A DNA stretch of 64,000 nucleotides, taken from the sequence record MK962756; one strand, given 5' to 3'. Of this stretch, positions 2,520 to 55,573 are shown piece after piece. A model generated the notes under the pieces. It had not been told where the DNA came from. It saw nothing but the letters and a program-made list of their open reading frames with translations, and made no database searches. Position 1 is the first letter of the stretch, and each line of letters opens with the position of its first letter. The translations under genes were made by a program, and so were the position numbers. This DNA is from Shigella phage JK42.

Positions 2520-3620
2520 TTACGCTGTGAAGATTTTATCCCACATCGCAACAACTGCATCTCGGTTATACTTCTTCCATACTGCTTCAGCACGTTTAAC
2601 TCGAGCTTCGTATGTGTCAGTGAATTCTAATACAGCTTTTGTGTAAAGCGCAACTACTTCTTTCTTAGGAGTAGATGAATCAATTTCTACACGCACAGTA
2701 TCTGGGTCGTATTCAAATGTCGCATGAGGATAATCCTTAAAAACTAACTGGATTACAGGGACACCTTTAGAGATGGCTTCAATAGAACTATTCTCTACCG
2801 TACCTGTGTCAGGACAAGTATTAATAAGTGCTTTAGCTGTTTTAAGACGTTCCATGATTTCACTGTGTGGAGCATCAATAATAACAGGATATTTAGCCGG
2901 TGGCGCCCATTTGCTTGGACAGTATCCTGCACCATTTTCGCCTAGTGCTTTAATCGCTTCAAGAGCAACATCAGTACGACGCATTTTAGTGTCATAACGT
3001 TGTGCACTAATAATCAGATCCGTCGCCGGAAGAACTTCTGGCTTTTCAGTCAAACAAATAACCGGATAATCTTCGGCTTCAAACAACGGATTTGCTCGCC
3101 AATAATCATAATCAATTTTGTCAGTCAGACCTGAAGTCATATAACAATATTTACGTTCAAATTCACGGAAGGCTTTAGTAGGAGCATAACTCTTACCACC
3201 ATTCTTATGAATTTGAATAGTCTGGTCCCAAATTTGAACAATGCCACGAGATACCGGTTCAAATGGTGTTGCCATAAAATTCTTATGAACTTTAGAGAGA
3301 CCTGCGTCTTTAATTGCCTGAACGGTTAGTTTAGTCGGTTCCATAGTAACAACAAAATCGTATTCATGAATGCCGGCTAGTTCAACAATCTTACGAGCCA
3401 TAGTATAACTCATACCTAGACTGAATTTAGTCAGATGACCAACAGGATGATGATTAACCTTCCAATCACCAAATGTGTCATTATCAAAGCCGATATAATC
3501 AATATCAGCACCGATGGACACAAGATATTTCAACACATTTAAATGTACTGCTTCAAGACCACCTTGTACACGTTCTGGGTTAAATGGGACTGCGCGAGAT
3601 GGGATAAACATAACTTTCAT
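2520..3620 (-). CDS. GT-B fold glycosyltransferase (GT4-like); candidate DNA hmC sugar transferase
   Basis: 366 aa; N-terminus MKVMFIPSRAVPFNPERVQGGLEAVHLNVLKYL and C-terminal ...TGTVENSSIEAISKGVPVI resemble retaining GT-B enzymes; inserted between rIIA.1 and gene 39 where T4 has gene 60/mobA. Confidence 0.6.
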   Translation of the reverse strand: MKVMFIPSRAVPFNPERVQGGLEAVHLNVLKYLVSIGADIDYIGFDNDTFGDWKVNHHPVGHLTKFSLGMSYTMARKIVELAGIHEYDFVVTMEPTKLTVQAIKDAGLSKVHKNFMATPFEPVSRGIVQIWDQTIQIHKNGGKSYAPTKAFREFERKYCYMTSGLTDKIDYDYWRANPLFEAEDYPVICLTEKPEVLPATDLIISAQRYDTKMRRTDVALEAIKALGENGAGYCPSKWAPPAKYPVIIDAPHSEIMERLKTAKALINTCPDTGTVENSSIEAISKGVPVIQLVFKDYPHATFEYDPDTVRVEIDSSTPKKEVVALYTKAVLEFTDTYEARVKRAEAVWKKYNRDAVVAMWDKIFTA

Positions 3621-8351: not shown

Positions 8352-8380
8352 ATTATACTCCATCCATCCTTGGTTGTAAA
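8352..8380 (-). promoter_or_regulatory. early promoter TTTACA-N17-TATAAT, copy 1 of a repeated 31-bp element
   Basis: Plus strand cattatactccatccatccttggttgtaaac; minus strand gives -35 TTTACA, 17-nt spacer, -10 TATAAT. Confidence 0.5.
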
Positions 8381-8386
8381 CCGGTT

Positions 8387-9064
8387 TTATCGCTGTTTTA
8401 CACTTAACGGGTCAGGATTCTCAGGGACATCTTCAAGGCCAAGCGCATAACGCTGAGCATATTTTAACATCAAAATATCTTTAGCACAATCATGAATACT
8501 ATCATGGGCAACGAATCCTTTTAGCGTACCCATCGGTAATGGACACATACTTAATCCTCGTGTCAACGAGTAAGCTTCGATTGCCGTACGAATATCACGT
8601 TGAGCCCAGAATTTAACCGGTTCTAATTTATCAGTATCAATATCTGGTTCAAGAACACCTTCATCACGATAGAGGTCACGAATCAAATCGACCAAGATCG
8701 GGAAGTCAAAGCTCATACCACGGCACCACATCTGTGATTTCCATTGGTCAACTTTATTAGCTCGACAATAATCTAAAAAGATTTTAATGCCTTCAAGCGT
8801 AGTGACATCGTCTTCAGACGGAGCCAGGTTTTTACGCGCTTCTGCTGACTGTTCTTTCCACCATTTCATAGTGGATTTAGCGAAAACTCGCTTCCCTTTC
8901 TGAGAAGCTAAATTAAATTTAATTCGCTTACCTCGTTGAACAAGTTCTTCAAATGATTCAACAACTTCAGGGTCGGAATTATATGCAATAACCGCAAGGT
9001 CAATAACAGCCGCTTTTGATGTATTGCCGAATGTTTCAAAATCTATAATAACATCAGTGCTCAT
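8387..9064 (-). CDS. dexA: exonuclease A (DEDDh 3'-5' exonuclease)
   Basis: 225 aa; N-terminal ...IIDFETFGN... exonuclease motif; size and position after dda as in T4. Confidence 0.8.
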   Translation of the reverse strand: MSTDVIIDFETFGNTSKAAVIDLAVIAYNSDPEVVESFEELVQRGKRIKFNLASQKGKRVFAKSTMKWWKEQSAEARKNLAPSEDDVTTLEGIKIFLDYCRANKVDQWKSQMWCRGMSFDFPILVDLIRDLYRDEGVLEPDIDTDKLEPVKFWAQRDIRTAIEAYSLTRGLSMCPLPMGTLKGFVAHDSIHDCAKDILMLKYAQRYALGLEDVPENPDPLSVKQR

Positions 9065-14706: not shown

Positions 14707-15228
14707 TCAGTAACCATTATCCTGACGTTCAAAGTTGTGTTGGTTTTTCAAGTAGTAAAGTTTAAAGATTTCTTCAGCCGAAAGACCTAGACCTTGGAAC
14801 ATATTTAGAACGAAATGCAGAATATCAATCATTTCAAATTTAATTTCAAGCTGGTCTTCAGGAGACAGTTCATCGATACGACGATTTCGATATTCAGCAT
14901 GTTGTGCCTTCCACGGCTTCCATACACTGCTGGCGGCTTTTTCACCATTGCTCATACCGCCAAGTGAAGTCAGCAGTTCACGGAATTCATCGTCAATATA
15001 ATCTTTCTGATTCCGCAGCCAATCAACAACATCACCAGCAGTGGCCAAATCATCAGGATGTTTGTTATGTTCAGGCTTGTCATTTGCCAGACGAACCTGT
15101 AAAGATTTCTGCATATCAAGCATTACCTGCAATGGGTCTTTATCTTCGTGAATCAGAGCATTAAAATAAGCTTCTTCTGCTTTATCAACACCAGAAATAA
15201 GTTGTGAACATTCGTTAAAGTGTGCCAT
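14707..15228 (-). CDS. 56: dCTPase/dCDPase (MazG-like dCTP pyrophosphatase)
   Basis: Matches remembered T4 gp56 (MAHFNEC...DPLQVMLDMQ...IDDEFRELLTSLG...YYLKN); start taken at the second ATG, the upstream in-frame ATG is part of an AAAGGA ribosome-binding context. Confidence 0.85.
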   Translation of the reverse strand: MAHFNECSQLISGVDKAEEAYFNALIHEDKDPLQVMLDMQKSLQVRLANDKPEHNKHPDDLATAGDVVDWLRNQKDYIDDEFRELLTSLGGMSNGEKAASSVWKPWKAQHAEYRNRRIDELSPEDQLEIKFEMIDILHFVLNMFQGLGLSAEEIFKLYYLKNQHNFERQDNGY

Positions 15229-15316
15229 TATTTTTCCTTTCAATTCAGTATAAGAGAGTTAATTCTACCATTAATTTTATAAAGCGTAATAAATAATAGG
15301 TAACTAAGGAGATATT

Positions 15317-15514
15317 ATGTTTAAACTTCCATCGTTAATCAACGCTATTAAAGGCAATAAAAAGAAAACTGCTATAGCTGCAATAGTTGTAGGTGGCATT
15401 ATTTCATGGAACTTCGGGATTGCACCGTTGTTAGTTGCCCATGGTGTTATGGTTCCTTCTGTTCCTTTGGATACTGTAGTTGATTTGGCCTTTGCTATTA
15501 TAGGGCTTGTTTAA
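15317..15514 (+). CDS. small hydrophobic (membrane) protein, plus strand
   Basis: 65 aa, largely hydrophobic; strong SD TAAGGAGA 6 nt upstream of ATG; convergent with gene 61, divergent from gene 56. Confidence 0.45.
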   Translation: MFKLPSLINAIKGNKKKTAIAAIVVGGIISWNFGIAPLLVAHGVMVPSVPLDTVVDLAFAIIGLV

Positions 15515-19575: not shown

Positions 19576-19950
19576 TTAAAAACGTAATTTAGATATATCC
19601 GCGTTGATTTCGTTTTGGTTTGCGTCGTATGCAATTAAACGAACCGCTTTAGATGGGTCATTCAATGCATAGAAATGATGGAACATTGCTCGAACGATAT
19701 CACCATTTACGAGTTCTACCTGGATAGGAGAACCTTTTTCGAGTTGGAAATGTTCATAAGCTTTGATGGTTCGTAGATAATCAAGTTTTTGATTTCCAGC
19801 TCCAACTATTTGTACGATACGTTTGCCTGTGTTTTCCATACGAGATACAATAGTTTTAGGAGCAAGAATAACGTAGGTTGCCAGCGGAGAAACTACTTCA
19901 ACAGTTGTGTTTTCGGTGATTGCAGTAAAAATTGCTTGAGACATATTCAT
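19576..19950 (-). CDS. hypothetical protein
   Basis: 124-aa ORF with early promoter upstream (~19979-20010). Confidence 0.5.
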   Translation of the reverse strand: MNMSQAIFTAITENTTVEVVSPLATYVILAPKTIVSRMENTGKRIVQIVGAGNQKLDYLRTIKAYEHFQLEKGSPIQVELVNGDIVRAMFHHFYALNDPSKAVRLIAYDANQNEINADISKLRF

Positions 19951-20015
19951 AATGTTTTCCTCTTGGTTTGTGTAAGTACATCATATCATGCCTAGAGGAA
20001 GATGTAAACCCCGAA

Positions 20016-23645: not shown

Positions 23646-24545
23646 TTATTCCTCGATTACGACATCTTCATATTTAGGTATATTATACGGCGAAGAAATT
23701 AAAGCATTAAAGTAGATGAACTCACCAAGACCTGGATGGAATACTTCTTCAGGATTTTCGAAATATTGAATTTTCGGACGTCCTTTAAGAATTTGATAGT
23801 ACTCAGTTTTAGTTGGTTTAAAAATTCGAATCAGCGCTTCTTCAGGATACTTATTTCTGTCGAAGCTATTATTTGGATCGGTTATATAAAGCGGTTGACC
23901 TAATTGAATTGCGCATTCAACAACTTGTTCAAAACGATAGCATGGGTCACTAATTCGAAATGGATGAAAAATACCATCTAGATGAATAGGAGCCAAATCA
24001 CCTACAAGACGCTGCATGATGGAAGGACGTATAACTTTCTGCGTTACGATAATCTTATTACCATCTGCACCAGCGTTAACCAGCACTTCTTTTTGACGTT
24101 CATTCAACACAGTAGTTTGAAGTGAACGATTAACCGACAACATATCGGTTTTTAAGAATTCGTCAATATAAAAACGTGGTTTATTAGGGTCTGCAGTGAT
24201 ATTGAAATTGAATTCCACATCAAAAGCGCCGTCATATCCAGTGATATCTGTGATTAGAAAATCACAATCATAATAAGCAATTAATGAATCAACCACAAAT
24301 TCATTTTCAGACCAGAAATATTTACGAGTGTTATACGCGTTATCTTTATACCATAATGGAACAAACTTAAATTCTGGAAAAAGACGTTCGCATTCTTTAA
24401 TATCAGATGCATTACGTGGATATGTAATCACATCACCCGGATTAGCACGGTGCAAATGAAGTTGGAAGTTGCCATCCTTAAGGATAGCATACTGTCCAGT
24501 TTCATAAGACCGCATACTCAAGATAGGTACGCGGAAAATAGCCAT
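23646..24545 (-). CDS. hypothetical protein (beta-gt positional replacement)
   Basis: 299-aa ORF between the kinase-like gene and gene 42; no recognisable motif. Confidence 0.5.
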   Translation of the reverse strand: MAIFRVPILSMRSYETGQYAILKDGNFQLHLHRANPGDVITYPRNASDIKECERLFPEFKFVPLWYKDNAYNTRKYFWSENEFVVDSLIAYYDCDFLITDITGYDGAFDVEFNFNITADPNKPRFYIDEFLKTDMLSVNRSLQTTVLNERQKEVLVNAGADGNKIIVTQKVIRPSIMQRLVGDLAPIHLDGIFHPFRISDPCYRFEQVVECAIQLGQPLYITDPNNSFDRNKYPEEALIRIFKPTKTEYYQILKGRPKIQYFENPEEVFHPGLGEFIYFNALISSPYNIPKYEDVVIEE

Positions 24546-25261
24546 TAGTCAAGGAATCCTTTAACATAATCAAAATCACGTTCAAACACATGGGCACTTA
24601 CCATGGTATGAGTATAATCACCAACTTCTACACCACATTCATTAGCGATATAATGAAGTAATTTTCCTTGGAGATAAAAATCCAACTGCATAACAACAGC
24701 ACAGTTCTGAGAACGCATATGACAGTGGGTATAAAGCTTACCATCACGAATATAATAAGTCACTGAGTCAGTACATGGATATTCAAGCGTTTCGTCCGAA
24801 TCAAGCAAAGCCTGATCAGAACTTTCTAGAATTTGGAACACAACTCTTCGAGAGTTAGGCTTCTCTTTAAGTTCTTTTAGAAGAGCTGGTAATTGAGCCG
24901 CAATGCGAGGACCATAGAAAGTGTTGAAGTTCGCCGGCAAAACATCTGATTTTGGTTTAGAAATAAATTTAGCGACATTAGGATATGCCTTAAACGCTTC
25001 TTCTGCGTTGGTACCACCAGAAATCATAAACTTCCAGAAGTCTTCGGCATATTCATAAGAGATGCGGTTAATACGTGGGTCGGTCATTTTGAATGATGAT
25101 GGAGTGTCAACAACTACTGTCATAGACCCAATTTCATTACAACGTCCAATACGAGAATCAGTTACGAATTCCGGGTTTTCTAAAATTTCACGATTGACTG
25201 CTTTAAATGCGGTTTGAAAATCTGCGGCTTTGATATATTTCATTGTGTTATGTTTTCCCAT
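24545..25261 (-). CDS. 42: dCMP hydroxymethylase (thymidylate-synthase fold)
   Basis: 238 aa; SRRVVFQIL...YPCTDS...YIRDGKLY...HMRSQN aligns by eye with the T4 gp42 / thymidylate synthase active-site region. Confidence 0.7.
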   Translation of the reverse strand: MGKHNTMKYIKAADFQTAFKAVNREILENPEFVTDSRIGRCNEIGSMTVVVDTPSSFKMTDPRINRISYEYAEDFWKFMISGGTNAEEAFKAYPNVAKFISKPKSDVLPANFNTFYGPRIAAQLPALLKELKEKPNSRRVVFQILESSDQALLDSDETLEYPCTDSVTYYIRDGKLYTHCHMRSQNCAVVMQLDFYLQGKLLHYIANECGVEVGDYTHTMVSAHVFERDFDYVKGFLD

Positions 25262-25302: not shown

Positions 25303-25542
25303 TTATTTGAATTTCTTGGCAATGTTGATATAACGTAAAGCTTCAGCATCGATACTTCCAAGAACACTATGAAGAAATGCATCAGCGTAGTATTCCAATT
25401 GAACAGGTTCTTTAATCACTTTAGCCGCTTTAGTTTCAAACAGGCCCATCAGGGCCTTTTTAAGAATTTGTTCATTAGTGTTCAGTTTCATAGTCAAAAT
25501 CTCTTCATTAAGTTGGTGGTTAAAAGTTTTTCTAGAAATCAT
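25303..25542 (-). CDS. hypothetical small protein
   Basis: 79-aa ORF. Confidence 0.4.
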   Translation of the reverse strand: MISRKTFNHQLNEEILTMKLNTNEQILKKALMGLFETKAAKVIKEPVQLEYYADAFLHSVLGSIDAEALRYINIAKKFK

Positions 25543-26714
25543 TCCGGGTACCTCAAAGCGTCATCAGAGTTAGTTATATCAATAATAGATATAGAGTTTT
25601 CTGCTAACCCGTTTTTAGATAATTGACGTTTATAATATCTTTCACAATATGTACACGTCGTCCCGCAGATTTCATTAGCACAATCGAAATCTGGATGTCT
25701 GAACCACCTTTTTTCTAAAAAGCCATCTAACAAAGAGGTTTCAATATTTACTGTATGTGAAAACTCAGTTTCGTTTTCAAGAGTGAAAATAGTCTCTAAA
25801 GGCTTCCACAGTTCTAACAAATTACCTTCAAACTTTTCAGAAGCGTATGCTTCAAGAACTTTCAAAATGTAGTCTGTGCTACCTGTACGTCCTGAAACTT
25901 TGAATTGAGTGATACCAATATCATTATAAAGTTTCAAATCTTGAGGACGAACAAAACGAGTTCTCAGCCAGTTAAATGGGTCTGTATCACGAGCTTTAAT
26001 GCAGTGTTGCATTGGATATCCATTTAAGGATTTAGCATCATCAGCGGTAACATCAGTACTATGGAAAATATAGCAAGAGTCACGATAGCTACAATGTGTT
26101 GTATACCCTTTACCAGCATTAGAACAGAACTCATTTACAAGAACTTCAAATATTATATTGTTCTTATTGCAAAACTCTGCTGCACGCTTCAGGAAAGAAA
26201 CTGAACGGTTCTTATGAATTCCACAGCAGACCTTTTTGATATTATATTGGTCATGCAAGTATTTGATTTGAGTTACAGCATCGACATGTAGAATTGTTGA
26301 AACTTCAATCTCAATGTCTTTATTGACTTCACGAACAATTTCCATAACAACAGGGTTAGCGATAGTAATACGCCATACGCCTATTGACCAAAGATACTGA
26401 ACATAATCCTGAATAGCTTTCTTCTTCCACTCAACTAGTTCTCTTTTTGAACCAGGATTTATCGTGTTGAGTGTATAGTTAAAGCAAATACCTAATTCGT
26501 TACAACGTTTAACGTAATCTTCTAACATCTTTTTGTCAACGTCAGGAAGCCTAAAATCAGGTCTGGCTGCTACAAAAGCCATTTCTCTTGTAGAGCCGTA
26601 TACTTCGTTTATCAAGCTATTAGGATAAGTTTTATTGAGCTCTACGATTTTATCAAGAAGAGCTAAATCAAAATTCGTTCCGATTTTAAAAGTATTCATT
26701 TTTTTGCATCTCAC
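25539..26714 (-). CDS. Cys-rich protein with C-terminal CX4CX3CX2C cluster (possible Fe-S enzyme)
   Basis: 391 aa; ...FCSNAGKGYTTHCSYRDSCYIFH... and ...DFDCANEICGTTCTYCERYY... ; the CGTTCTYC segment fits the CX3CX2C pattern with an aromatic residue before the last Cys. Confidence 0.45.
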   Translation of the reverse strand: MRCKKMNTFKIGTNFDLALLDKIVELNKTYPNSLINEVYGSTREMAFVAARPDFRLPDVDKKMLEDYVKRCNELGICFNYTLNTINPGSKRELVEWKKKAIQDYVQYLWSIGVWRITIANPVVMEIVREVNKDIEIEVSTILHVDAVTQIKYLHDQYNIKKVCCGIHKNRSVSFLKRAAEFCNKNNIIFEVLVNEFCSNAGKGYTTHCSYRDSCYIFHSTDVTADDAKSLNGYPMQHCIKARDTDPFNWLRTRFVRPQDLKLYNDIGITQFKVSGRTGSTDYILKVLEAYASEKFEGNLLELWKPLETIFTLENETEFSHTVNIETSLLDGFLEKRWFRHPDFDCANEICGTTCTYCERYYKRQLSKNGLAENSISIIDITNSDDALRYPE

Positions 26715-26755: not shown

Positions 26756-27157
26756 TTATAGATTTGGTTTATATGATTTAAATGTTTCGAATTCGCCTTT
26801 ATTCATAAGAGCTTTGAATTCATCAGGACGCATAGCTTTGTCGTCGATAATCCAATCATATACTGGTTTATGTGTTAGCAAATTATGGTACTTCAAACCA
26901 ATGTTTTCCAAGTTCTGAATCAGACTTGGGAGAATGTCAATTGCTATACGACCAGGACCTACTGACTTCATACCACGAGCAGTGTAAAGCGTTATGGTAT
27001 GCCCTGCATCATACAGGGCATTAATGGCAGACACCATTTCGACGTCTGGTTTGAAGTTCACGTAATCACGATTGTTATTCCATTCCGTGATGCAATCATC
27101 GACATCAAAACAAAGATTAAGCATGTTTTCTACACGGTGCATTAGATTCGTTCCCAT
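26756..27157 (-). CDS. HAD-superfamily phosphatase-like protein
   Basis: 133 aa; motif I-like FDVDDCIT, later T, K and IIDDK acidic motif. Confidence 0.5.
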   Translation of the reverse strand: MGTNLMHRVENMLNLCFDVDDCITEWNNNRDYVNFKPDVEMVSAINALYDAGHTITLYTARGMKSVGPGRIAIDILPSLIQNLENIGLKYHNLLTHKPVYDWIIDDKAMRPDEFKALMNKGEFETFKSYKPNL

Positions 27158-28827
27158 TGATGAGTGATATCGCCACCGATTGGACGATAGGAAACACCAG
27201 TTTCTTTATCAGTTAGTACCCATTTACCAGGATTTTTTGTAATCAGAGTAGCCGTTACAGGTTCTGCTACGTCATAACTAATAGAGCCGTCCTGAAGTAC
27301 ACGGCCCATGTTACGTAATTGCTTAGTCAGAAGTTCCATACCTTTATAATATGCGGCTACCGCTTTAAGTGGATTATTCTTGAAATAACCACCTAATGCA
27401 ATCCAGATAATTGCCACTGCCAAATGATGATACTCGTTAAACGAACTCATCTTTCCATATTTGTAAACTAATGGATTGATGTTAATAGTCACATTACAAG
27501 TTGTTTCATCAATAGTAAACTGCCCCCAGGTCGGATTAGCATTGAATTCATCATAACCTGAAACAGCATAAAGCACTTTAGCTTCATCATACAATTTTGG
27601 CCCGTAAATCTTGGTTTCGCCAAAATATCCACGAGGGTCGATAAACTTGACTTCGCCGTTATCAGTAATCATAGTATTACTGAAGTTCGGGTCACCATGA
27701 ATAACAGAGTACTGTCCCTGAGAACGGTTATGATAACGAATAAGGTGTTCTAAAGCTTGTTTCAGCATTGGCTTCAGACGTCCAATCTTAGTGTAGTTCA
27801 CATGTGTGATTTTACCAAATGAATCAATCAATGGTTGAATGCTTTCACAACGATCAATAACTTTCGTATAGAATTCTTTAGTGAAATCACGACGAACAGT
27901 TTCAGGACTTACAAAATAAGTGTCTGTGCTGAATTTCAGTGCATCTAAAATTGCATCAATAATTTGTGGACGAGCAAGACTTGATTTTGATTTAATATAT
28001 TCAAATGCCGGCTTACCTTTAATGCGTTCCATTTCAAAGTTATTTTCATTAACAGAAACTAACTGAGGAACTGAATCTGATTTCACTTTCAAATACCACG
28101 AAATCTCATCTTTCTGAAGAGCTCGACCATGTTCGGTTAATGCGAATTTAGTTACAGTTTCTTCGCCAATTTCAACTGCATTAAAACTACGATTAAGTTC
28201 ACGAACTTCATGAGCCTTTTCAAGTTTAGGCATATCACCTAAATCAATTATATTCATAAGCTCTGATTTATTGAATGCGCTGCCGTAAAGGAATTCTACG
28301 AAATCACGTCCTTTGCAGTATTCATGAATTTCCTCATCGGTAGAACCCATATAGAATTCCCAGTCTTTGAACTGATAAATTCCTACAACATTACCACCTG
28401 TTGAACCTACGTTAGTGATATTTTCACCGTCGAAATTATATCGACATTCGTCACCCTTAACATAGATTGCGTTAACATTCCAAGACCATGAACCAAAATC
28501 AGGAATAATATCACACCAGTTAACAATTACATTATGGCCGTCTAAATCTTTGTGTAATTTAGCAAGAGCATAAGCAGAACCATACGCTTCATCAACTGTA
28601 CGAATAGTCACATTGAACCCTTCTTGCTCACAATAAGCTCGAACAGTTTCAGCAAATTTTGAATGAACTACTACAATAATTTCATCTGCGCCAAGGTCAG
28701 AATAAATTGTATACAAATTGCTCAGAATAGTGTCTTGTTTATAATTAACAAGCACCTTAGGAATATGATGCGTTATTGGATACAAACGAGTTGCCAGTCC
28801 AGCACCAAGAATAACAGCTTTTTTCAT
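27142..28827 (-). CDS. bifunctional sugar-1-phosphate nucleotidyltransferase (N-term) / APH-fold anomeric sugar kinase (C-term)
   Basis: 561 aa; N-term MKKAVILGAGLATRLYPITHHIPKVLV resembles RmlA/MurU-type NTases; C-term ...VIHGDPNFSNTMITDNGEVKFIDPRGYFG is the HGDxxxxN...D kinase motif of APH/choline-kinase/AmgK-type kinases. Confidence 0.7.
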   Translation of the reverse strand: MKKAVILGAGLATRLYPITHHIPKVLVNYKQDTILSNLYTIYSDLGADEIIVVVHSKFAETVRAYCEQEGFNVTIRTVDEAYGSAYALAKLHKDLDGHNVIVNWCDIIPDFGSWSWNVNAIYVKGDECRYNFDGENITNVGSTGGNVVGIYQFKDWEFYMGSTDEEIHEYCKGRDFVEFLYGSAFNKSELMNIIDLGDMPKLEKAHEVRELNRSFNAVEIGEETVTKFALTEHGRALQKDEISWYLKVKSDSVPQLVSVNENNFEMERIKGKPAFEYIKSKSSLARPQIIDAILDALKFSTDTYFVSPETVRRDFTKEFYTKVIDRCESIQPLIDSFGKITHVNYTKIGRLKPMLKQALEHLIRYHNRSQGQYSVIHGDPNFSNTMITDNGEVKFIDPRGYFGETKIYGPKLYDEAKVLYAVSGYDEFNANPTWGQFTIDETTCNVTININPLVYKYGKMSSFNEYHHLAVAIIWIALGGYFKNNPLKAVAAYYKGMELLTKQLRNMGRVLQDGSISYDVAEPVTATLITKNPGKWVLTDKETGVSYRPIGGDITHQWERI

Positions 28828-28868
28828 GTTGAAGTCCTCATTGGTAAGTAGGAGTATTGTACACTATT

Positions 28869-29012
28869 CTAGTTAAAGCATTCATACTTTGCTTGTAGTC
28901 CAATCATAATCCATCCAATTACAAGTGTTGGAATCATTACCGGAGCCGTTAAGCTCCAGTAGATAGTCATGACAAGCATCAATAGTAAAAGTCCTATTGT
29001 TATTGCTTTCAT
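28869..29012 (-). CDS. small predicted membrane protein
   Basis: Hand translation: MKAITIGLLLLMLVMTIYWSLTAPVMIPTLVIGWIMIGLQAKYECFN (47 aa); start overlaps the SIS gene stop (ATGA); below the ORF-track cutoff. Confidence 0.3.
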   Translation of the reverse strand: MKAITIGLLLLMLVMTIYWSLTAPVMIPTLVIGWIMIGLQAKYECFN

Positions 29013-29644
29013 TGTTCGCCTCGTAACATGGCACCTAGTGCACCGCCTGGATGGAACTTAAGGAAATCATTAGAGGTAAATCCACGTTCAGACGAAAGGT
29101 TGATAGCAAACGTATCGATAAGTGCTAACAACAATGTAGTGGACATCGTCGGAGCTAAAGAGTTCTCGTCAACTTCTACCGCGATACCGGTGCAGAACGT
29201 ATAATCAAAAAGAGCTTCGTATTCTTGTGGAATGTCAGGGTTACAATGTAACAGAATCTGTTTAACCTGAGGACGAATCATACGAAGATGTTTAGCAACA
29301 CCTATCATTTCTTCAGTTTTACCAGAACGACTAATATGAATCAACACGTCATTAGGCGCAATAAATCCTGCGTCACCATGAGAATAATGCCCGGTGTTCA
29401 AATACATGCTAGGAATACCTAGTGAAGCAAAAGTCTCGGAAGCTTTAGTTGCGATATTAGCATTCTTACCAACACCTGTAATAATTACCCGGCTTTCATA
29501 ATTACTAAGTCCAGGGCGTCGAAGAGTTTCTAGAATAGCATTATAACGAGCAGGGTTTTGACTAATTACTTTAGCCATAGTGGCAAGAGATGAAGCTTGT
29601 TTTACGATTGCGTCAATAGCGATAGTAATAGGAGTAGTTTTCAT
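29009..29644 (-). CDS. SIS-domain sugar-phosphate isomerase, KdsD/GutQ-like (arabinose-5-phosphate isomerase) without CBS domains
   Basis: 211 aa; VIITGVGKNANIATKASETFASLGIPSMYLNTGHYSHGDAGFIAPNDVLIHISRSGKTEE aligns with the remembered KdsD SIS core (GMGKSGHIGKK...HGDLGMV...ISNSGES). Confidence 0.7.
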   Translation of the reverse strand: MKTTPITIAIDAIVKQASSLATMAKVISQNPARYNAILETLRRPGLSNYESRVIITGVGKNANIATKASETFASLGIPSMYLNTGHYSHGDAGFIAPNDVLIHISRSGKTEEMIGVAKHLRMIRPQVKQILLHCNPDIPQEYEALFDYTFCTGIAVEVDENSLAPTMSTTLLLALIDTFAINLSSERGFTSNDFLKFHPGGALGAMLRGEQ

Positions 29645-29684: not shown

Positions 29685-30114
29685 TCAAAAATCAAACATA
29701 TCGAACAGAGATGCTTTCTTCTCGTAATCGAGTTTAGCTGCTGATGTGAATCCTTCAAGTGGTTTAATAAATGTCTTCTCAAGGAGAACAGTGTAGTCCA
29801 TCCAATGAAGTACATCGTCTTTAATTAAATCTGTGATTTCAGTACCAGAAGGCCATGCGATACATTTATCACCGAATGGGTTTCCTTCACGTAAAGGCAG
29901 AACATATACTTTTTCACCTTCTACAACTTGTGGTGCATCAATATTACCTTTGATAGCTCGGTTATATGTCAGAATTCCACGTATATGGAACGGGCATTTA
30001 GGACCCGGGAATCCACCTACGTCGTATTTAGCAATGTTATTCGCAGAAGATACCGACGCGATGCTAATATAATTCAATTGACGGAATTCTTTTTCAAACT
30101 CTTTAAAATATTCT
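29685..30114 (-). pseudogene. detached 3' segment of gene 43 encoding the polymerase C-terminal region and clamp-binding tail
   Basis: In the polymerase frame this segment encodes ...EGFTSAAKLDYEKKASLFDMFDF, the expected gp43 C-terminus; separated from the main ORF by the duplication. Confidence 0.6.
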
Positions 30115-30502
30115 ACTTCATTGGATGGCTGATGTGAATCCTTCAAGTGGTTTAATAAATGTCTTCTCAAGGAGAACAGTGTAGTCCATCCAATGAAGTA
30201 CATCGTCTTTAATTAAATCTGTGATTTCAGTACCAGAAGGCCATGCGATACATTTATCACCGAATGGGTTTCCTTCACGTAAAGGCAGAACATATACTTT
30301 TTCACCTTCTACAACTTGTGGTGCATCAATATTACCTTTGATAGCTCGGTTATATGTCAGAATTCCACGAATATGGAACGGGCATTTAGGACCCGGGAAT
30401 CCACCTACGTCGTATTTAGCAATGTTATTCGCAGAAGATACCGACGCGATGCTAATATAATTCAATTGACGGAATTCTTTTTCAAACTCTTTAAAATATT
30501 CT
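29740..30502. repeat. 375-bp direct repeat, two copies (29740-30114 and 30128-30502), joined by a 13-bp spacer
   Basis: Read directly: copies identical except one mismatch (t/a near 29986/30374); the spacer acttcattggatg is the reverse complement of catccaatgaagt found inside the repeat; period 388 bp is not a multiple of 3. Confidence 0.9.
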
Positions 30503-32784
30503 TGTAATGATTCTTCACCTTCTTGAAGCATACGACGAATACATTCTTTAAGAGCTTTCTGTACTGCTTTAGGGGTCGAAGATTTCTGAGTCTCTAGACC
30601 CATGATTTTGAGTTTAGGCTCAGCGTATCTGGTTCCTTCCATATCCCACACGTTTAATGCATAACGTTTCTTACCAGTCCAGAATCCACCAATACCTTTA
30701 GAACCGAGCGGAGGACCAGCGATAGCTTCTCGGTCCATGAACATTAAGTGTTGTTTATTGTTCATGTATTCACACATTTCACGGAAACCTTTATCAATAG
30801 CTGGTTCCATACGTTCACGAGCGAACTTATCTAAGAAGTCTACCCAATGGTTGGTATCACGGAATTTAGATTCACCAACCTTATCAATAATTTTATCTGC
30901 AGATACGTAAATGGAGTCTGTATCACCATATAGAACGAAAGCTTCACCTTCTGTACCACAAACTTCATTCAGATATTCATTAACTTTACGTTCAATCCAC
31001 TGTAAAGCCATTTGTCCGAATGTTGTGATTGCAGTAGCATTACGCAAATCATAATAACGGAACCAAACGTTGCCAAGTGCACCATAAAGTGAGTTGATAA
31101 GCAATTTACGGTTAATTTGTGCGGTCATACCTGCAACTTCAGTACGTTGAGCTCTAAACAACATTTCATTAAGAGATTTAGCAGACAACTTTTTAATCTT
31201 TTCTTTAATCTCATCACTGAAGTCGAAACGATAATCAACATCTAATGGTTCGTCAACAGAAAGATTAGGATTATGCAATGCCTCTTTAATTATTTCGCCG
31301 TTACGTTGAGCCGCAAGCATGTAACCTTTATGTTCTTTACGTTGATTAAAGACCTTAGTGATTTCAGTTGGAACTACACCATCACGGTCTTTATAATACA
31401 TCATGCCGTTAGGAGAGCAACTGTACACATCTGAAGGACGTTCAGCGATTGCGTTAATATAATCATGCAGTGGAGCTACTTTAAACGTTCCTGCTATTGT
31501 TTCCGGGCTAATATTCACTTGGCGAATAATACTTGGATACAGAGATGTAAGGTCGAAACTCATTACATATTTGTATCGATTTGGAATAGGTTCCTTAACA
31601 AAAGCGCCAGGATAAGGTTGAACCGGGTGAGAACGACCTTGTGGAATCACCTTGTTTTGTTCTTTAAGGCTATTAAAAATAATAGCATCCCAAGTTTTAA
31701 TTGGACTGAACACAGATTGAATCTGAATTTTAGCATAATAACCCATGTCCAAGCTCAAGTTGATGAACTGACGCTTAGAATCAATTTGCAATACACGATA
31801 CACGTCGATAATGTTATAAGAAATATATCGTTGGTGATTGCTTTCACGAAGCTTAGAAATAGGGCCGTCATATTTCAGTTTACCAACGTTCAATTCAAAT
31901 TCTGAAATGTAATCCAGAGAATACGACGGTTGATTGGTAAAAGAGAATTTTTTGTAAAGGTCAATGTAATCAAGAACAGAGATACCGAACAATGTAATGA
32001 TTTCACGAGAACCATACATGTTTTCGATAACTTTAACACGAGTTTTACGATGTGGCGATAAACGTTTCGCAGTAGATTCGCCAAAAATATTCTTGATTCG
32101 GTTATACACATATGGAATATCAAATGACTCAACGTTCCATCCAGTCAAAATGACAGGAGTTTTCTGTTGCCAGAAGTTGAGATATTCCATCAACAATTCT
32201 TTTTCGTTATCGAACGGCATATAAATGATTTTATCGATAATTTCAGATGGAACTTCATCACCGCCTTGTTCTTGAAGCTTAGCAGCGATTTCAATAGACC
32301 ATTCTTCTACATTACCATATGGAGAATTCAATAGATCAAATACGTAGAACCTGTCGTCAATTGAGTCATAATGGGTGATAGCATCAATCGGATGTTTTGC
32401 TTGTGACGGCTCAGGGAACCCATCCGGAGATGTTACTTCGATGTCGAAGTTAGCCACACGAATTTTTGTATGGTCGTATTTGATTTCATAGTTATAAGTG
32501 TCAGACAAATACGCCAATTTGAAATCGTCCATGCCAAGTGCTTCAAGTCCGATATCTTCCATGCGTTTAATCCATTGGGAGGCATCACGCATATTAGCGA
32601 ACAGCTTACGAGTACACGGCTTACCGTAGATATCGAAATATTTCGTAGCCTGACTTTCTGGACAATGAGCAAACAGTGATGGTTTATATTCTACTTCACG
32701 AGTACGTTCACGGCCATTAGAATCGATGTAACGTTCAAAAATTGAATCACCAATCTGTTCAACCGTTAAGTAAAATTCTTTCAT
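30118..32784 (-). CDS. 43: DNA polymerase (family B), C-terminally truncated by the duplication frameshift
   Basis: 888 aa; MKEFYLTVEQIGDSIFERYIDSNGRERTREVEYKP... matches remembered T4/RB69 gp43; the ORF ends ...EGFTSAIQ instead of the clamp-binding tail. Confidence 0.9.
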   Translation of the reverse strand: MKEFYLTVEQIGDSIFERYIDSNGRERTREVEYKPSLFAHCPESQATKYFDIYGKPCTRKLFANMRDASQWIKRMEDIGLEALGMDDFKLAYLSDTYNYEIKYDHTKIRVANFDIEVTSPDGFPEPSQAKHPIDAITHYDSIDDRFYVFDLLNSPYGNVEEWSIEIAAKLQEQGGDEVPSEIIDKIIYMPFDNEKELLMEYLNFWQQKTPVILTGWNVESFDIPYVYNRIKNIFGESTAKRLSPHRKTRVKVIENMYGSREIITLFGISVLDYIDLYKKFSFTNQPSYSLDYISEFELNVGKLKYDGPISKLRESNHQRYISYNIIDVYRVLQIDSKRQFINLSLDMGYYAKIQIQSVFSPIKTWDAIIFNSLKEQNKVIPQGRSHPVQPYPGAFVKEPIPNRYKYVMSFDLTSLYPSIIRQVNISPETIAGTFKVAPLHDYINAIAERPSDVYSCSPNGMMYYKDRDGVVPTEITKVFNQRKEHKGYMLAAQRNGEIIKEALHNPNLSVDEPLDVDYRFDFSDEIKEKIKKLSAKSLNEMLFRAQRTEVAGMTAQINRKLLINSLYGALGNVWFRYYDLRNATAITTFGQMALQWIERKVNEYLNEVCGTEGEAFVLYGDTDSIYVSADKIIDKVGESKFRDTNHWVDFLDKFARERMEPAIDKGFREMCEYMNNKQHLMFMDREAIAGPPLGSKGIGGFWTGKKRYALNVWDMEGTRYAEPKLKIMGLETQKSSTPKAVQKALKECIRRMLQEGEESLQEYFKEFEKEFRQLNYISIASVSSANNIAKYDVGGFPGPKCPFHIRGILTYNRAIKGNIDAPQVVEGEKVYVLPLREGNPFGDKCIAWPSGTEITDLIKDDVLHWMDYTVLLEKTFIKPLEGFTSAIQ

Positions 32785-44876: not shown

Positions 44877-46690
44877 TGGTGTTTAACCCTATGCATGATT
44901 TCTTTATTTTTACCGAGATTAAATCCGCGTTCGTTCGGATTTCCCAAATAACCACATGTTCTTCTTATTGTGTTCATCTTTTTAGGATCAGTTTCTCCAC
45001 AAATAGAACAAACAAATCCGTTTTCAGTAGGAGTCATTTCATGGGTACTTCCACATGTAAAACATTTATCCACTGGCATATTAACACCAAAATAATCTAA
45101 ATGTTGTGCAGCATAATCCCAGACGGCCTCAAGTCCCTTTAAATTGTTTTTCATATCTGGAAGTTCAACATAAGAAATGTGACCACCTGTCGCTATGAAA
45201 TGATATGGCGCTTCACGAGAAATCTTTTCAAACGGAGTAATATTTTCTTCTACTGAAACATGGAAACTATTAGTGTACCAACCTTTATCAGTAACATCCT
45301 TTACACTTCCATATTTTTCTGTATCAAGTTTACAGAAGCGGTAACAAAGGTTTTCAGCAGGAGTAGAATACAAACTAAAAGCAAATCCAGTTCTTTCGGA
45401 CCACTGTTTAAGATGAGCATTCATTTTAGTTAAAATTTCTTGCCCAATATCACGACCGACAAGAATATTCAATTCGTGAATACCAATGTATCCTAAAGAC
45501 ACTGAACTTCTACCGTTTTTAAATAACTCAATTATGTCGTCATCAGGTTTAAGACGAACCCCGAATGCACCTTCTTGGTAAAGAATAGGAGCAACAGTCG
45601 CTTTAACTCCTTTTAAGGAACTAATTCTACACATCAAAGCTTCAAAACACAGATCCATTCGTTCATTGAACAATTCGATAAATTTCTGTTCATTGAACTG
45701 TGTTCCAATATAAGAATCTAGCGCAATACGAGGAAGATTTAATGTTACAACACCGAGATTATTACGTCCATCAAGAATTTCATTACCAGTCGAATCTTTC
45801 CATACGCTCAAGAAACTACGGCAACCCATCGGAGAAACAGGAACTGAAGAACCGGTAATAGCTTTATTATTCTTAACCGAAATAATGTCAGGATACATTC
45901 TTTTGCTTGCACATTCTAACGCAAGTTGTTTAATATCATAGTTTGGATCATCTTTATAAAGATTAACACCTTCTTCAACAAACATAACAAGTTTAGGAAA
46001 AATAGGAGTTATTCCATCACGACCAAGACCTTTAATGCGGTTTTTAAGAATTGCCTTCTGAATCATTCGTTCAGTCCAGTCAGTTCCCGTACCAAATGTA
46101 ATTGTTACAAAAGGCGTTTGTCCGTTTGAACTAAAGAGAGTATTTACTTCGTATTCATAAGCTTGGAATGCGTCATAGACATCTTTTTCTGTTTTAGATT
46201 GAGCATAATTCAACGCATCAGCGATTTGCCATTTTTCTGCATCTTCAACATGTTTAGCGTATGTGCGTTTAACATAAGGAGAAAGAACTTTATCTACATT
46301 CGCAAATGTAGTTCCGCCATACTGGTGTGAAGCAACTTGTGCGGTAATTTGTGCCATAATTGCAGTAGCAACACCAATCGATTTAGGCGTTTCAATTTGA
46401 GCATTGCCTAATTTAAATCCGTTCTCAAGCATTCCCTTTAAATCTACTAAACAGCAATTAGTAAAAGGCAATGATATACTGTAATCTAAATCGTGAAAAT
46501 GAATTAACCCGGCATTATGAGCATTTACAATATGGCTCGGAAGAATACTACAAGCGATATGTTTAGAAACAATACCGGCCATTAAATCTCTTTTTGTTGG
46601 AAAGACACGAGAATCTTTGTTGGCATTTTCGGTATTTAATTCTTTATCTTTATTTGAAATAAAATTTAAAACATCTTTCTCTAAAGACAT
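44873..46690 (-). CDS. nrdD: anaerobic ribonucleoside-triphosphate reductase
   Basis: 605 aa; C-terminal zinc ribbon CFTCGSTHEMTPTENGFVCSICG and glycyl-radical region RTCGYLG; uninterrupted (no intron). Confidence 0.9.
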   Translation of the reverse strand: MSLEKDVLNFISNKDKELNTENANKDSRVFPTKRDLMAGIVSKHIACSILPSHIVNAHNAGLIHFHDLDYSISLPFTNCCLVDLKGMLENGFKLGNAQIETPKSIGVATAIMAQITAQVASHQYGGTTFANVDKVLSPYVKRTYAKHVEDAEKWQIADALNYAQSKTEKDVYDAFQAYEYEVNTLFSSNGQTPFVTITFGTGTDWTERMIQKAILKNRIKGLGRDGITPIFPKLVMFVEEGVNLYKDDPNYDIKQLALECASKRMYPDIISVKNNKAITGSSVPVSPMGCRSFLSVWKDSTGNEILDGRNNLGVVTLNLPRIALDSYIGTQFNEQKFIELFNERMDLCFEALMCRISSLKGVKATVAPILYQEGAFGVRLKPDDDIIELFKNGRSSVSLGYIGIHELNILVGRDIGQEILTKMNAHLKQWSERTGFAFSLYSTPAENLCYRFCKLDTEKYGSVKDVTDKGWYTNSFHVSVEENITPFEKISREAPYHFIATGGHISYVELPDMKNNLKGLEAVWDYAAQHLDYFGVNMPVDKCFTCGSTHEMTPTENGFVCSICGETDPKKMNTIRRTCGYLGNPNERGFNLGKNKEIMHRVKHQ

Positions 46691-47502
46691 AATTCTAATT
46701 TATCCTTTTGAAATTCTTCGTCTAAATATGGGTTCCAACCCATTTTAAACCTTTTGATGAAATTATCAATTCTAAATTTCGGTAAGTTTAAATCCGCAAA
46801 AATAGATGATTTACTTTTAAAATCTGGACCTAAATAATCATATAAAATTTCTGCGTATTTTAACCATAATATATAAGTACCAGATTTAATTGCTCTCGGA
46901 GTTTTCCAAGGTTTTACGCCGTACATCGGATTTCCACTTCCTTTATGCCTGATAGAAGATGAAATTCCAATTTTAATTTTAGCTTCCTTTGTGTGCGAAA
47001 ATCCATGATGTGGATTTTCTTTCCAGTATTTTTTAGAAGCTTCTGATATTTTCTTTCTGGCTAAATTAGTATGATGCTTTCCATAAAATCCATGATTTTT
47101 ACCTTTATTACGATTTCTTTTAATCATGGTTATTGATTGCTTTTCTCTAGTTTCTTTAGAAGGAGAAACACCGTACGTTGTAAATTGACCATTAGCATAT
47201 GCTAAATTAAAATACTCTTTATTCCATATATCTTTTTCTATATTCTTTTGAAATTCAGCTTCAATGCTAGTTATTTGTTCATCTCCGACTAATTGAAAAT
47301 ATAATATTTCAACTTTCGGTGTTTCTTTCAACAGAGCTTTTTGAAATTCGGAAGATGACGAAGACGAATAATAAAATTTACCATTTTTATCAATAATATT
47401 CGTTCCGTCAAAAGTGCAATTGGTTTTACTTCCAATATAATAATATGGCGGGGTTTTAGCATTAATTCTACTAATAAATGATAGTTTATATACTACATTC
47501 AT
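46681..47502 (-). mobile_element. free-standing GIY-YIG homing endonuclease (Seg-like)
   Basis: 273 aa; N-terminal VYKL...YYIGSKT GIY-YIG-type motif, basic C-terminal region; wedged between 49 and nrdD, overlapping both. Confidence 0.55.
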
Positions 47503-49090: not shown

Positions 49091-49108
49091 TTAAAATTTT
49101 CTCGCAGG

Positions 49109-55474: not shown

Positions 55475-55552
55475 TTCGTTTCGATAGGTCTATAATAACA
55501 TATCCTAAAAGCATGTACACTACTTTTTTTAAAAATATTTTAACCCCCTAAA

Positions 55553-55568
55553 GGGACCCGAAGGTCCC
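55553..55568 (-). terminator. hairpin GGGACC-CGAA-GGTCCC
   Basis: 6-bp GC-rich stem 6 nt past the stop of 55574..55840; weak U tract. Confidence 0.4.
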
Positions 55569-55573
55569 CGCAT

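What the first reader, a model, noticed from the sequence alone, without database searches (positions are those of the whole stretch)
26756..29644. Phage-encoded four-step NDP-pentose (arabinose-type) synthesis module beside dCMP hydroxymethylase
Three adjacent minus-strand genes encode a KdsD-like single-domain SIS isomerase (29009..29644), a fused sugar-1-phosphate nucleotidyltransferase/APH-fold anomeric kinase (27142..28827) and a HAD-type phosphatase (26756..27157). Together they could run ketopentose-5-P to aldopentose-5-P, then dephosphorylation, then anomeric 1-phosphorylation, then NDP-sugar. The module sits where T4 has imm, next to gene 42, in a genome that also has dCTPase (56) but no alpha-gt or beta-gt. 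This fits a phage making its own activated sugar to decorate hmC DNA. I recall arabinosyl-hmC being reported for RB69-like phages, but the phosphatase/anomeric-kinase route inferred here is not, to my knowledge, biochemically established.
Basis: partly seen in the sequence, partly recalled or inferred. Interest (0 to 1): 0.85.

Follow-up and report, generated by a model that had tools for sequence, protein, structure and literature searches.

The report
Phage UDP-arabinose pathway for DNA decoration
These three genes are the RB69-type phage pathway that makes UDP-arabinose to sugar-coat the phage's cytosines; it is real but was published and biochemically solved in 2018-2026, and the only fresh lead is an unexplained U32-family gene next door.

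Summary
Three co-directional, overlapping minus-strand genes encode a single-domain KdsD-like isomerase, a nucleotidyltransferase/APH-fold kinase fusion and a small HAD phosphatase. The window is an RB69-like Mosigvirus, about 97% identical to RB69. The three proteins are 97-99.5% identical to RB69 gp55, gp52:53 and gp51. The phosphatase matches PDB 9iqw at 128 of 129 residues.

The module is already known. It was proposed in 2018 and assigned in 2025-26 (Lee et al. NAR 2026; He et al. Nat Chem Biol 2026; Mahler et al. 2025).

The interpretation needs three corrections:
- The acceptor base is 5-hydroxycytosine, not hmC.
- The neighbouring "gene 42" is a flavin/O2-dependent 5-hydroxy-dCMP synthase. 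It carries the diagnostic D169N signature and is 99.2% identical to RB69 gp48.
- The published order is isomerase, then 1-kinase (giving the 1,5-bisphosphate), then 5-phosphatase, then UTP transferase. The phosphatase does not act first.

One new lead lies outside the given coordinates. The U32 "peptidase" inside the cluster pairs with chorismate mutase or DAHP synthase in other phages. It also occurs with the glycosyltransferase but without any ThyA homologue. It may be an O2-independent, prephenate-dependent pyrimidine hydroxylase.

The parts
29009..29644 (-). D-arabinose-5-phosphate isomerase, single SIS domain without CBS pair (RB69 gp55 homologue): ribulose-5-P to arabinose-5-P
   Evidence: KdsD catalytic residues conserved. 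97.2% identical to RB69 gp55.
28869..29012 (-). 47-aa two-helix membrane ORF between isomerase and fusion gene; function unknown
   Evidence: 100% identical to the RB69 region. Conserved in Serratia phage LC53 and Yersinia phage fHe-Yen9-01.
27142..28827 (-). Bifunctional enzyme (RB69 gp52:53, HY126 AfhE type). N-terminal sugar-1-P nucleotidyltransferase (about residues 1-200). C-terminal APH/choline-kinase-fold kinase (about residues 200-561, nucleotides 27145-28230).
   Evidence: 99.5% identical to RB69. Function from PMC13326640.
26756..27142 (-). HAD-type phosphatase (RB69 gp51, HY126 AfhF type): arabinose-1,5-bisphosphate to arabinose-1-P. The longest ORF extends to 27157.
   Evidence: (PDB 9iqw, 1xpj). 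Motifs FDVDDCIT, YTAR, HKP and IIDD are visible in the sequence.
25539..26714 (-). U32-family protein (RB69 gp50); function unassigned; candidate O2-independent hydroxylase (inference)
25303..25542 (-). 79-aa ORF (RB69 gp49). It sits where other straboviruses carry a type II chorismate mutase, but it is not recognisably one.
24545..25261 (-). Thymidylate-synthase homologue = 5-hydroxy-dCMP synthase (RB69 gp48), not a dCMP hydroxymethylase
   Evidence: (PDB 9iqc/9ir2/9iqu, E 8e-161). Function from PMC13326640.
23646..24545 (-). Putative DNA arabinosyltransferase 1 (RB69 gp46:47, intact here)
   Evidence: 99-100% identical across the RB69 frameshift. Assignment from PMC13326640.
23096..23644 (-). 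Thymidylate-kinase-like nucleotide kinase (RB69 gp45)
   Evidence: Assignment from PMC13326640.
2520..3620 (-). Putative DNA arabinosyltransferase 2 (RB69 ORF003c homologue)
   Evidence: 99.2% identical. PMC6024577 and PMC13326640.
14707..15243 (-). gp56 dCTPase, removes dCTP from the pool
   Evidence: 96.6% identical to RB69 gp56.

Best explanation
The three genes are the sugar-activation arm of the RB69/Mosigvirus cytosine-arabinosylation system.

1. The SIS isomerase takes ribulose-5-phosphate from the pentose phosphate pathway and makes D-arabinose-5-phosphate.
2. The C-terminal APH-fold kinase of the fusion protein phosphorylates C1, giving arabinofuranose-1,5-bisphosphate.
3. The small HAD phosphatase removes the 5-phosphate, giving arabinose-1-phosphate.
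4. The N-terminal nucleotidyltransferase domain condenses it with UTP to give UDP-arabinofuranose.

Two phage arabinosyltransferases (23646..24545 and 2520..3620) then transfer one or two arabinoses onto 5-hydroxycytosine in DNA. That base enters DNA through the 5-hydroxy-dCMP synthase at 24545..25261, together with dCTPase and nucleotide kinases.

Shown here: gene structure, folds, catalytic motifs, and near-identity to proteins whose homologues were characterised. Taken from the literature: the enzymatic order, UDP as carrier, and the DNA chemistry. Inferred: that this particular phage's DNA carries the modification.
For: - ORFs and their overlaps indicate one operon (TAATG junction).
- Domain and fold assignments.
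- Identity to RB69: gp55 97.2%, gp51 126/128, gp48 99.2%; gp52:53 99.5%; GT1 99-100%, ORF003c 99.2%, gp56 96.6%.
- The phosphatase matches PDB 9iqw at 128/129 residues. The ThyA homologue matches 9iqc/9ir2/9iqu.
- The 5-hydroxy-dCMP synthase signature is present: C146, E143, N169, D177.
- Pathway and chemistry come from PMC13326640, which summarises He et al. 2026 on HY126 AfhE and AfhF.
- Arabinose was found in RB69 DNA (PMC6024577).
- Mosigvirus NicPhage is 98.8% identical over this region (H6). Its DNA contains 5-ara-dC and 5-ara-ara-dC by HPLC-MS (PMC13390438).
- The module is conserved in 373 phage records.
Against: - No experiment exists on this exact phage.
- I could not read He et al. 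2026 or Mahler et al. 2025. The kinase-before-phosphatase order rests on the summary by Lee et al., whose own Table 1 still lists the opposite order.
- The kinase assignment has no significant sequence-level PDB or Pfam support. It rests on motifs, distant homologues carrying PF01636 and a predicted structure with moderate TM-scores of 0.43-0.50.
- HAD motif I reads DVDDC rather than DxDxT.
Confidence: 0.9

Rival explanations
1. The phosphatase first dephosphorylates arabinose-5-P to free arabinose. The kinase then phosphorylates the anomeric carbon of the free sugar. The transferase finally makes NDP-arabinose.
Against: The text of PMC13326640 reports that HY126 AfhE is an arabinose-5-phosphate kinase and that AfhF dephosphorylates the 1,5-bisphosphate. 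The phosphatase resembles heptose-1,7-bisphosphate phosphatases. The bacterial nucleotide-heptose pathway uses the same kinase-then-phosphatase logic (established knowledge).
Confidence: 0.06
2. The module feeds a non-DNA target. For example, it could boost host Kdo/LPS or capsule synthesis through arabinose-5-P, or it could be a GmhA-type heptose pathway.
For: Database names point that way: "capsule biosynthesis phosphatase", "phosphoheptose isomerase", "GlmU".
Against: - The best matches are arabinose-5-P isomerases with KdsD catalytic residues. No GmhA family appears among the listed hits.
- The genes are always embedded between a 5-hydroxy-dCMP synthase, DNA glycosyltransferases and the DNA polymerase.
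- Arabinose is found on the DNA of RB69 and NicPhage.
Confidence: 0.02
3. Same pathway but a different carrier nucleotide or sugar form, for example CDP- or GDP-arabinose, or the pyranose form.
For: The nucleotidyltransferase domain matches CTP-, GTP-, UTP- and dTTP-using enzymes about equally well. Specificity cannot be read from the sequence.
Against: PMC13326640 reports UDP-D-arabinose pyrophosphorylase activity for HY126 AfhE and arabinofuranose in the DNA.
Confidence: 0.03

Closest known systems
RB69 gp55 / gp52:53 / gp51 and phage HY126 AfhE/AfhF (UDP-D-arabinofuranose synthesis for arabinosyl-5-hydroxycytosine DNA)
   Same: Same genes in the same order and position. Proteins are 97-99.5% identical. 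The phosphatase matches PDB 9iqw at 128/129 residues.
   Different: Essentially nothing. In this window the two RB69 GenBank frameshifts (46/47 and 52/53) are intact ORFs. That agrees with the view of Lee et al. that they were sequencing errors.
Bacterial nucleotide-activated heptose pathway (GmhA, HldE or HddA, GmhB, HddC)
   Same: Same four-step logic: SIS isomerase, anomeric kinase acting on an already phosphorylated sugar, HAD phosphatase removing the distal phosphate, then nucleotidyltransferase. HldE also fuses kinase and transferase in one protein (established knowledge).
   Different: Pentose instead of heptose. The kinase here has an APH/choline-kinase fold, not a ribokinase or GHMP fold. 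The isomerase is KdsD-like rather than GmhA-like. The product goes to DNA, not LPS.
KdsD/KpsF/GutQ arabinose-5-phosphate isomerases
   Same: Same SIS fold and catalytic residues; 36% identity to E. coli KdsD.
   Different: Lacks the C-terminal CBS domain pair. It scores below NCBIfam full-length cut-offs for that reason. A5P is diverted to UDP-arabinose rather than to Kdo.
T4 hydroxymethylcytosine glucosylation (gp42, gp56, alpha-gt, beta-gt, host UDP-glucose)
   Same: Same genomic slot between uvsX and gene 43. Same strategy: a modified dCMP made by a ThyA homologue, dCTP removal, then post-replicative glycosylation.
   Different: Hydroxyl rather than hydroxymethyl on C5 (N169 versus D169). 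The phage must make its own sugar donor. The glycosyltransferases are different.
Eukaryotic arabinose salvage (arabinokinase plus UDP-sugar pyrophosphorylase)
   Different: It starts from free L-arabinose and uses GHMP kinases. According to the literature summary it is not what the phage enzymes do.

Membership tests
RB69/HY126-type UDP-arabinofuranose pathway (arabinosyl-5-hydroxycytosine system) | Single-domain arabinose-5-P isomerase with KdsD catalytic residues | tested here: met
   K59, H88, E111, E152 and H193 invariant in the alignment with E. coli KdsD. PDB 3etn 7e-25. 97.2% identical to RB69 gp55.
RB69/HY126-type UDP-arabinofuranose pathway (arabinosyl-5-hydroxycytosine system) | One polypeptide with an N-terminal sugar-1-P nucleotidyltransferase and a C-terminal APH-fold kinase | tested here: met
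   PF00483 at residues 3-99. Invariant K/E/HGDxxxxN/IDPRG. Model pLDDT 92.3; top PDB match 3ham. 99.5% identical to RB69 gp52:53.
RB69/HY126-type UDP-arabinofuranose pathway (arabinosyl-5-hydroxycytosine system) | Small HAD phosphatase of the 1xpj/EcbF-BcbF type, translationally coupled to the fusion gene | tested here: met
   PDB 9iqw 128/129 identical; 1xpj 1.5e-10. TIGR01689 1.9e-13. TAATG overlap.
RB69/HY126-type UDP-arabinofuranose pathway (arabinosyl-5-hydroxycytosine system) | Co-located 5-hydroxy-dCMP synthase with the D169N signature, plus DNA arabinosyltransferases | tested here: met
   C146, E143, N169 and D177. PDB 9iqc E 8e-161. GT1 and ORF003c homologues 99-100% identical to RB69.
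RB69/HY126-type UDP-arabinofuranose pathway (arabinosyl-5-hydroxycytosine system) | Enzyme activities (A5P 1-kinase, 1,5-bisphosphate 5-phosphatase, UDP-arabinose pyrophosphorylase) and arabinosyl-5-hydroxy-dC in virion DNA | not testable with these tools
   Known only from the literature on HY126, RB69 and NicPhage.
   The window protein has N169; T4 gp42 has D169. No T4 gp42 structure appears among the best 60 of 69 PDB matches.
   The T4 slots hold other genes. The window is collinear with RB69, and its largest private insert encodes a NUMOD3 endonuclease. Only 64 kb of the genome was visible.
U32 prephenate-dependent hydroxylases (RlhA, TrhP, UbiU/UbiV), considered for the neighbouring gene 25539..26714 | Membership of Pfam Peptidase_U32 | tested here: met
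   PF01136, 42.2 bits against a cut-off of 22.4. hhalign to RlhA: probability 74%, E 2.8e-5; TrhP and UbiU weaker.
U32 prephenate-dependent hydroxylases (RlhA, TrhP, UbiU/UbiV), considered for the neighbouring gene 25539..26714 | Four-cysteine motif that binds the 4Fe-4S cluster | tested here: inconclusive
   Only two of the four Cys align. The second position is Tyr (with a Cys four residues on) and the fourth is His. However, C197, C208, C214 and H218, plus a C-terminal CX4CX3CX2C, are invariant in 31 subfamily members.
U32 prephenate-dependent hydroxylases (RlhA, TrhP, UbiU/UbiV), considered for the neighbouring gene 25539..26714 | Dependence on prephenate and independence from O2 | not testable with these tools
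   Only genomic association. A chorismate mutase follows the U32 gene in five phage lineages. A DAHP synthase follows it in locus L020.
AroQ (type II) chorismate mutase, considered for the 79-aa ORF 25303..25542 | CM_2 profile match and the catalytic Arg/Arg/Lys residues | tested here: not met
   No Pfam hit even at E 1. BLASTP to the LC53 chorismate mutase E 0.15. The conserved LR and xRF arginines are absent.

The most novel reading that the evidence does not exclude
The U32-family gene inside the cluster (25539..26714, RB69 gp50) may be an O2-independent, prephenate-dependent pyrimidine-C5 hydroxylase. Lee et al. label it only "sugar or heterocycle reductase". In RB69-like phages it would back up the O2- and flavin-dependent 5-hydroxy-dCMP synthase during anaerobic infection. 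This would parallel TrhO/TrhP for tRNA and UbiI/H/F versus UbiU/V for ubiquinone. In many uncultured phages it would be the only enzyme making the hydroxyl group that DNA glycosyltransferases decorate.

Support:
- Among E. coli paralogues it is closest to RlhA, the rRNA 5-hydroxycytidine synthase.
- A genuine chorismate mutase follows it in five strabovirus lineages, and the pair stays together when relocated. 54 phage records carry such a chorismate mutase.
- A DAHP synthase follows it in an unrelated phage contig.
- In 4 of 7 metagenomic phage loci it directly abuts a homologue of arabinosyltransferase 1. In one of these the isomerase and kinase/transferase genes are present too. No ThyA homologue was found within 6-10 kb in any of the seven.
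- The Acinetobacter phage inspected lacks it, and no Acinetobacter record appears among its listed hits. Acinetobacter is a strict aerobe.
- RB69 carries anaerobic ribonucleotide reductase genes.

I could not check whether He et al. or Mahler et al. already discuss this.
Probability: 0.35. Interest if true: 0.75.

Novelty: already known. Interest (0 to 1): 0.2.

Why it matters
The module itself matters because it lets a phage build its own activated pentose. That pentose covers every cytosine with arabinose, which blocks many restriction and CRISPR systems. But this is established work, and the window adds only one more near-identical Mosigvirus copy.

What could matter is the neighbouring U32 gene. 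If it hydroxylates cytosine without oxygen, it would explain how these gut phages keep modifying their DNA anaerobically. It would extend the prephenate-dependent hydroxylase family from RNA and quinones to DNA precursors. It would also flag a large set of uncultured phages as carriers of glycosylated hydroxypyrimidines.

Tried and rejected
- He et al. 2026 and Mahler et al. 2025 are not held in the library. Their results are cited only through Lee et al..
- A 7-sequence profile of the kinase half against PDB sequences gave nothing significant, best E 0.23. I replaced it with a structure prediction and fold search.
- The 79-aa ORF as a chorismate mutase: rejected. The 92-aa ORF at the same position in Dhakavirus AnYang is also not a chorismate mutase.
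- A strict rule "U32 present in all phages of facultative anaerobes": rejected. E. coli Dhakavirus AnYang has the pathway without U32.
- GmhA/heptose reading of the SIS protein: rejected.
- Sequence search of the U32 protein against PDB found nothing.
- Literature searches for any link between U32, prephenate and phage DNA modification found none in the held library.
Full report
**1. Observation.** They belong to a tight run of co-directional genes that overlap by one or four bases:
- SIS gene and the 47-aa ORF at 29009-29012
- fusion gene and phosphatase at 27142
- U32 gene and the 79-aa ORF at 25539-25542
- ThyA homologue and glycosyltransferase at 24545

This is an operon-like arrangement. 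The phosphatase most likely starts at the ATG at 27142, which shares its A with the TAA of the fusion gene (TAATG). GenBank annotations of RB69 and JK45 and the crystallised construct 9iqw use that start.

**2. Source of the window.** Megablast finds 152 phage records that cover at least 80% of the region. The best is Escherichia phage APCEc01 at 99.3%. The window is collinear with RB69 from genome position 1 to about 63 kb, at 92-98% identity per aligned block. It is therefore a Mosigvirus.

| Window protein | RB69 counterpart | Identity |
|---|---|---|
| SIS isomerase | gp55 | 97.2% |
| Fusion protein | gp52:53 | 99.5% |
| Phosphatase | gp51 | 126/128 |
| U32 protein | gp50 | 98.5% |
| ThyA homologue | gp48 | 99.2% |
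| Glycosyltransferase 1 | gp46:47 | 99-100% |
| ORF003c homologue (2520..3620) | ORF003c | 99.2% |
| dCTPase (14707..15243) | gp56 | 96.6% |

**3. The proteins.**

*SIS isomerase.*
- It matches Pfam SIS, NCBIfam KpsF/GutQ and KdsD, and solved arabinose-5-phosphate isomerases 3etn, 5uqi and 2xhz.
- Aligned with E. coli KdsD it is 36% identical and keeps K59, H88, E111, E152 and H193. It stops before the CBS pair.

*Fusion protein.*
- The N-terminus has the G-x-G-x-x-T-R-L nucleotidyltransferase signature and matches PF00483 and CTP:phosphocholine cytidylyltransferase 1jyk.
- The C-terminal half is only weakly recognised by sequence profiles.
- Distant homologues carry PF01636.
- A 44-sequence alignment shows an invariant Lys, Glu, H-G-D-x-x-x-x-N and I-D-P-R-G.
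- The AlphaFold model is confident, with mean pLDDT 92.3 and pTM 0.90.
- Its best PDB matches are aminoglycoside 2''-phosphotransferases and choline/ethanolamine kinases. The top hit is 3ham at E 8e-8, the same hit Lee et al. list for RB69.

*Phosphatase.*
- It has no Pfam hit.
- It matches TIGR01689, a capsule biosynthesis phosphatase, and the HAD-like structure 1xpj.
- It matches PDB 9iqw at 128 of 129 residues.
- The four HAD motifs are visible in the sequence: FDVDDCIT, YTAR, HKP and IIDD.

**4. What is already known.**
- Thomas et al. 2018 (PMC6024577) found arabinose in RB69 DNA. They pointed to this gene module between uvsX and gene 43 as the likely UDP-arabinose source.
- Lee et al. 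2026 (PMC13326640) showed that RB69 cytosines are replaced by mono- and di-arabinosylated 5-hydroxycytosine. The sugar is ether-linked at C5.
- They also showed that gp48, a ThyA homologue with a flavin cofactor, makes 5-hydroxy-dCMP using O2.
- They assign gp55, gp52:53 and gp51 to NDP-arabinofuranose synthesis from ribulose-5-P.
- They summarise He et al. 2026 (Nat Chem Biol) on phage HY126. AfhE is both an arabinose-5-phosphate kinase and a UDP-arabinose pyrophosphorylase. AfhF is a Mg-dependent phosphatase acting on arabinose-1,5-bisphosphate.
- I could not read He et al. or Mahler et al. 2025 directly.
- An independent Mosigvirus, NicPhage, is 98.8% identical over this region (H6). It carries 5-ara-dC and 5-ara-ara-dC by HPLC-MS (PMC13390438).

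**5. Corrections to the interpretation.**
- The base is 5-hydroxycytosine, not hmC. I tested the signature of Lee et al. directly. At E. coli ThyA positions 143, 146, 169 and 177 the window protein has E, C, N and D. T4 gp42 has D, C, D and D. N169 marks the hydroxylating branch. The protein is near-identical to PDB 9iqc, 9ir2 and 9iqu, and no T4 gp42 structure appears among the best 60 of its 69 PDB matches.
- The module is not directly beside this gene. The U32 gene and a 79-aa ORF lie between them.
- The reported order is kinase before phosphatase, through a 1,5-bisphosphate. This is the same logic as the bacterial nucleotide-heptose pathway.
- The synteny statements are correct. T4 has 42-imm-imm.1-43, and RB69's own imm lies elsewhere. 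There is no alpha-gt between 47 and 55 and no beta-gt next to the ThyA homologue.

**6. A lead outside the given coordinates: the U32 gene (25539..26714).** Lee et al. label it "sugar or heterocycle reductase". Their text never mentions U32, RlhA or prephenate. Other searches of the held library found no such link either.

The U32 family includes UbiU/UbiV, TrhP and RlhA. These act in O2-independent hydroxylations that depend on prephenate, and RlhA makes 5-hydroxycytidine in 23S rRNA (PMC10990095; annotation).

The evidence gathered here:
- **Family and closest paralogue.** Pfam U32 scores above its cut-off. The best profile match among the E. coli paralogues tested is RlhA, at probability 74% and E 2.8e-5.
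- **Conservation.** All 221 phage homologues are at least 80% identical, which is more conserved than the sugar enzymes in the same phages.
- **Host range.** Hosts are Enterobacterales and Shewanella. No Acinetobacter record is listed. Yet 57-65 Acinetobacter phages carry the fusion protein and the ThyA homologue. In phage AM101 the phosphatase gene abuts the ThyA homologue directly.
- **Chorismate mutase neighbour.** In LC53, P545, fHe-Yen9-01, Pm5461 and Thanatos-2, a type II chorismate mutase above the Pfam cut-off follows the U32 gene directly or after one short ORF. In Thanatos-2 the pair has moved away from the ThyA homologue but stays together. 54 phage records carry such a chorismate mutase.
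- **Metagenomic relatives.** More than 250 homologues at 50-58% identity exist in metagenomic contigs. All seven contexts inspected look like phage nucleotide-metabolism or DNA-modification modules.
- **Neighbours in those loci.** In four, a homologue of arabinosyltransferase 1 sits immediately upstream or nearby. In L020 the order is GT1-like, SIS isomerase, kinase/transferase fusion, U32, then a DAHP synthase (NCBIfam 2.6e-70) and an epimerase. In L022 the neighbours include a TET-associated glycosyltransferase and a UDP-galactopyranose mutase.
- **No ThyA homologue.** None of the seven loci has a ThyA, gp42 or gp48 homologue within 6-10 kb.
- **Possible metal ligands.** The subfamily has invariant C197, C208, C214 and H218, plus C345, C350, C354 and C357. 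Only two of the canonical four U32 cysteines align.
- **Anaerobic lifestyle.** RB69 carries nrdD and nrdG.

Together these observations fit an oxygen-independent hydroxylase that makes the acceptor hydroxyl. They are associations only.

Points against:
- The E. coli Dhakavirus AnYang lacks U32.
- The Mosigvirus 79-aa ORF is not a recognisable chorismate mutase.
- gp48 alone suffices aerobically.

**7. Verdict.** The finding is real and mostly well read, but it is already known. I score it low for novelty. I flag the U32/prephenate hypothesis as the most novel reading not excluded by the evidence.

Noticed in passing
window 29740-30502: The 3' end of the DNA polymerase gene is tandemly duplicated. 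29740-30114 equals 30128-30502 with one mismatch at 29982, and a 13-nt filler (ACTTCATTGGATG) lies between the copies. The main pol ORF (30118..32784) therefore ends at 888 aa as ...TSAIQ and lacks the native C-terminal tail. That tail (...AKLDYEKKASLFDMFDF) is instead carried by a separate 172-aa ORF (29685..30203). From my own knowledge, this tail is the sliding-clamp-binding peptide. None of 154 Mosigvirus records has the junction. It may be an assembly artefact or a real, probably harmful, variant.
   Followed up: partly
window 25303-26714; loci L003, L008-L011, L017-L023: A U32-family gene sits inside the arabinosylation cluster. In other phages it is paired with chorismate mutase or DAHP synthase. 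In metagenomic phages it is linked to GT1-like glycosyltransferases without any ThyA homologue. It is a candidate O2-independent pyrimidine hydroxylase.
   Followed up: yes
window 28869-29012: A 47-aa predicted two-helix membrane protein lies between the isomerase and the fusion gene. It is identical in RB69, where GenBank annotates a shorter ORF054c. It is conserved in Serratia phage LC53 and Yersinia phage fHe-Yen9-01 (motif TIYW...PVMIPTL...LQxK..CFN). Its function is unknown.
   Followed up: partly
window 46681-47502: A 273-aa ORF with a NUMOD3 motif, probably a homing endonuclease, is inserted between nrdD and gene 49. It lies in an 866-bp stretch absent from RB69.
   Followed up: partly
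window 49108-49389, 55514-55873, 60050-60459: Three further short stretches have no counterpart in RB69. Conversely, RB69 segments around 8371-8865, 15256-15487 and 19771-19973 are absent from the window.
   Followed up: no
window 23646-24545 and 27142-28827: The two gene pairs split in the RB69 reference (ORF046c/047c and ORF052c/053c) are single intact ORFs here. This supports the statement that the RB69 splits are sequencing errors.
   Followed up: yes
locus L020 5289-12804: An 80-kb metagenomic phage contig with a PolIII-alpha replicase carries GT1-like, SIS, kinase/transferase, U32, DAHP synthase and epimerase genes in a row. It has no detectable HAD phosphatase homologue. A histidine-phosphatase-family gene lies about 2 kb upstream and might substitute.
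   Followed up: no
one search hits H62-H64: Distant homologues of the kinase/transferase fusion (26-28% identity) occur in Tenacibaculum phage PTm5, Vibrio phage D491s and Synechococcus phage S-SRM01. In S-SRM01 the match lies under features annotated as NDP-sugar synthase and 3' phosphatase. This hints at related sugar-activation modules in unrelated large phages.
   Followed up: no
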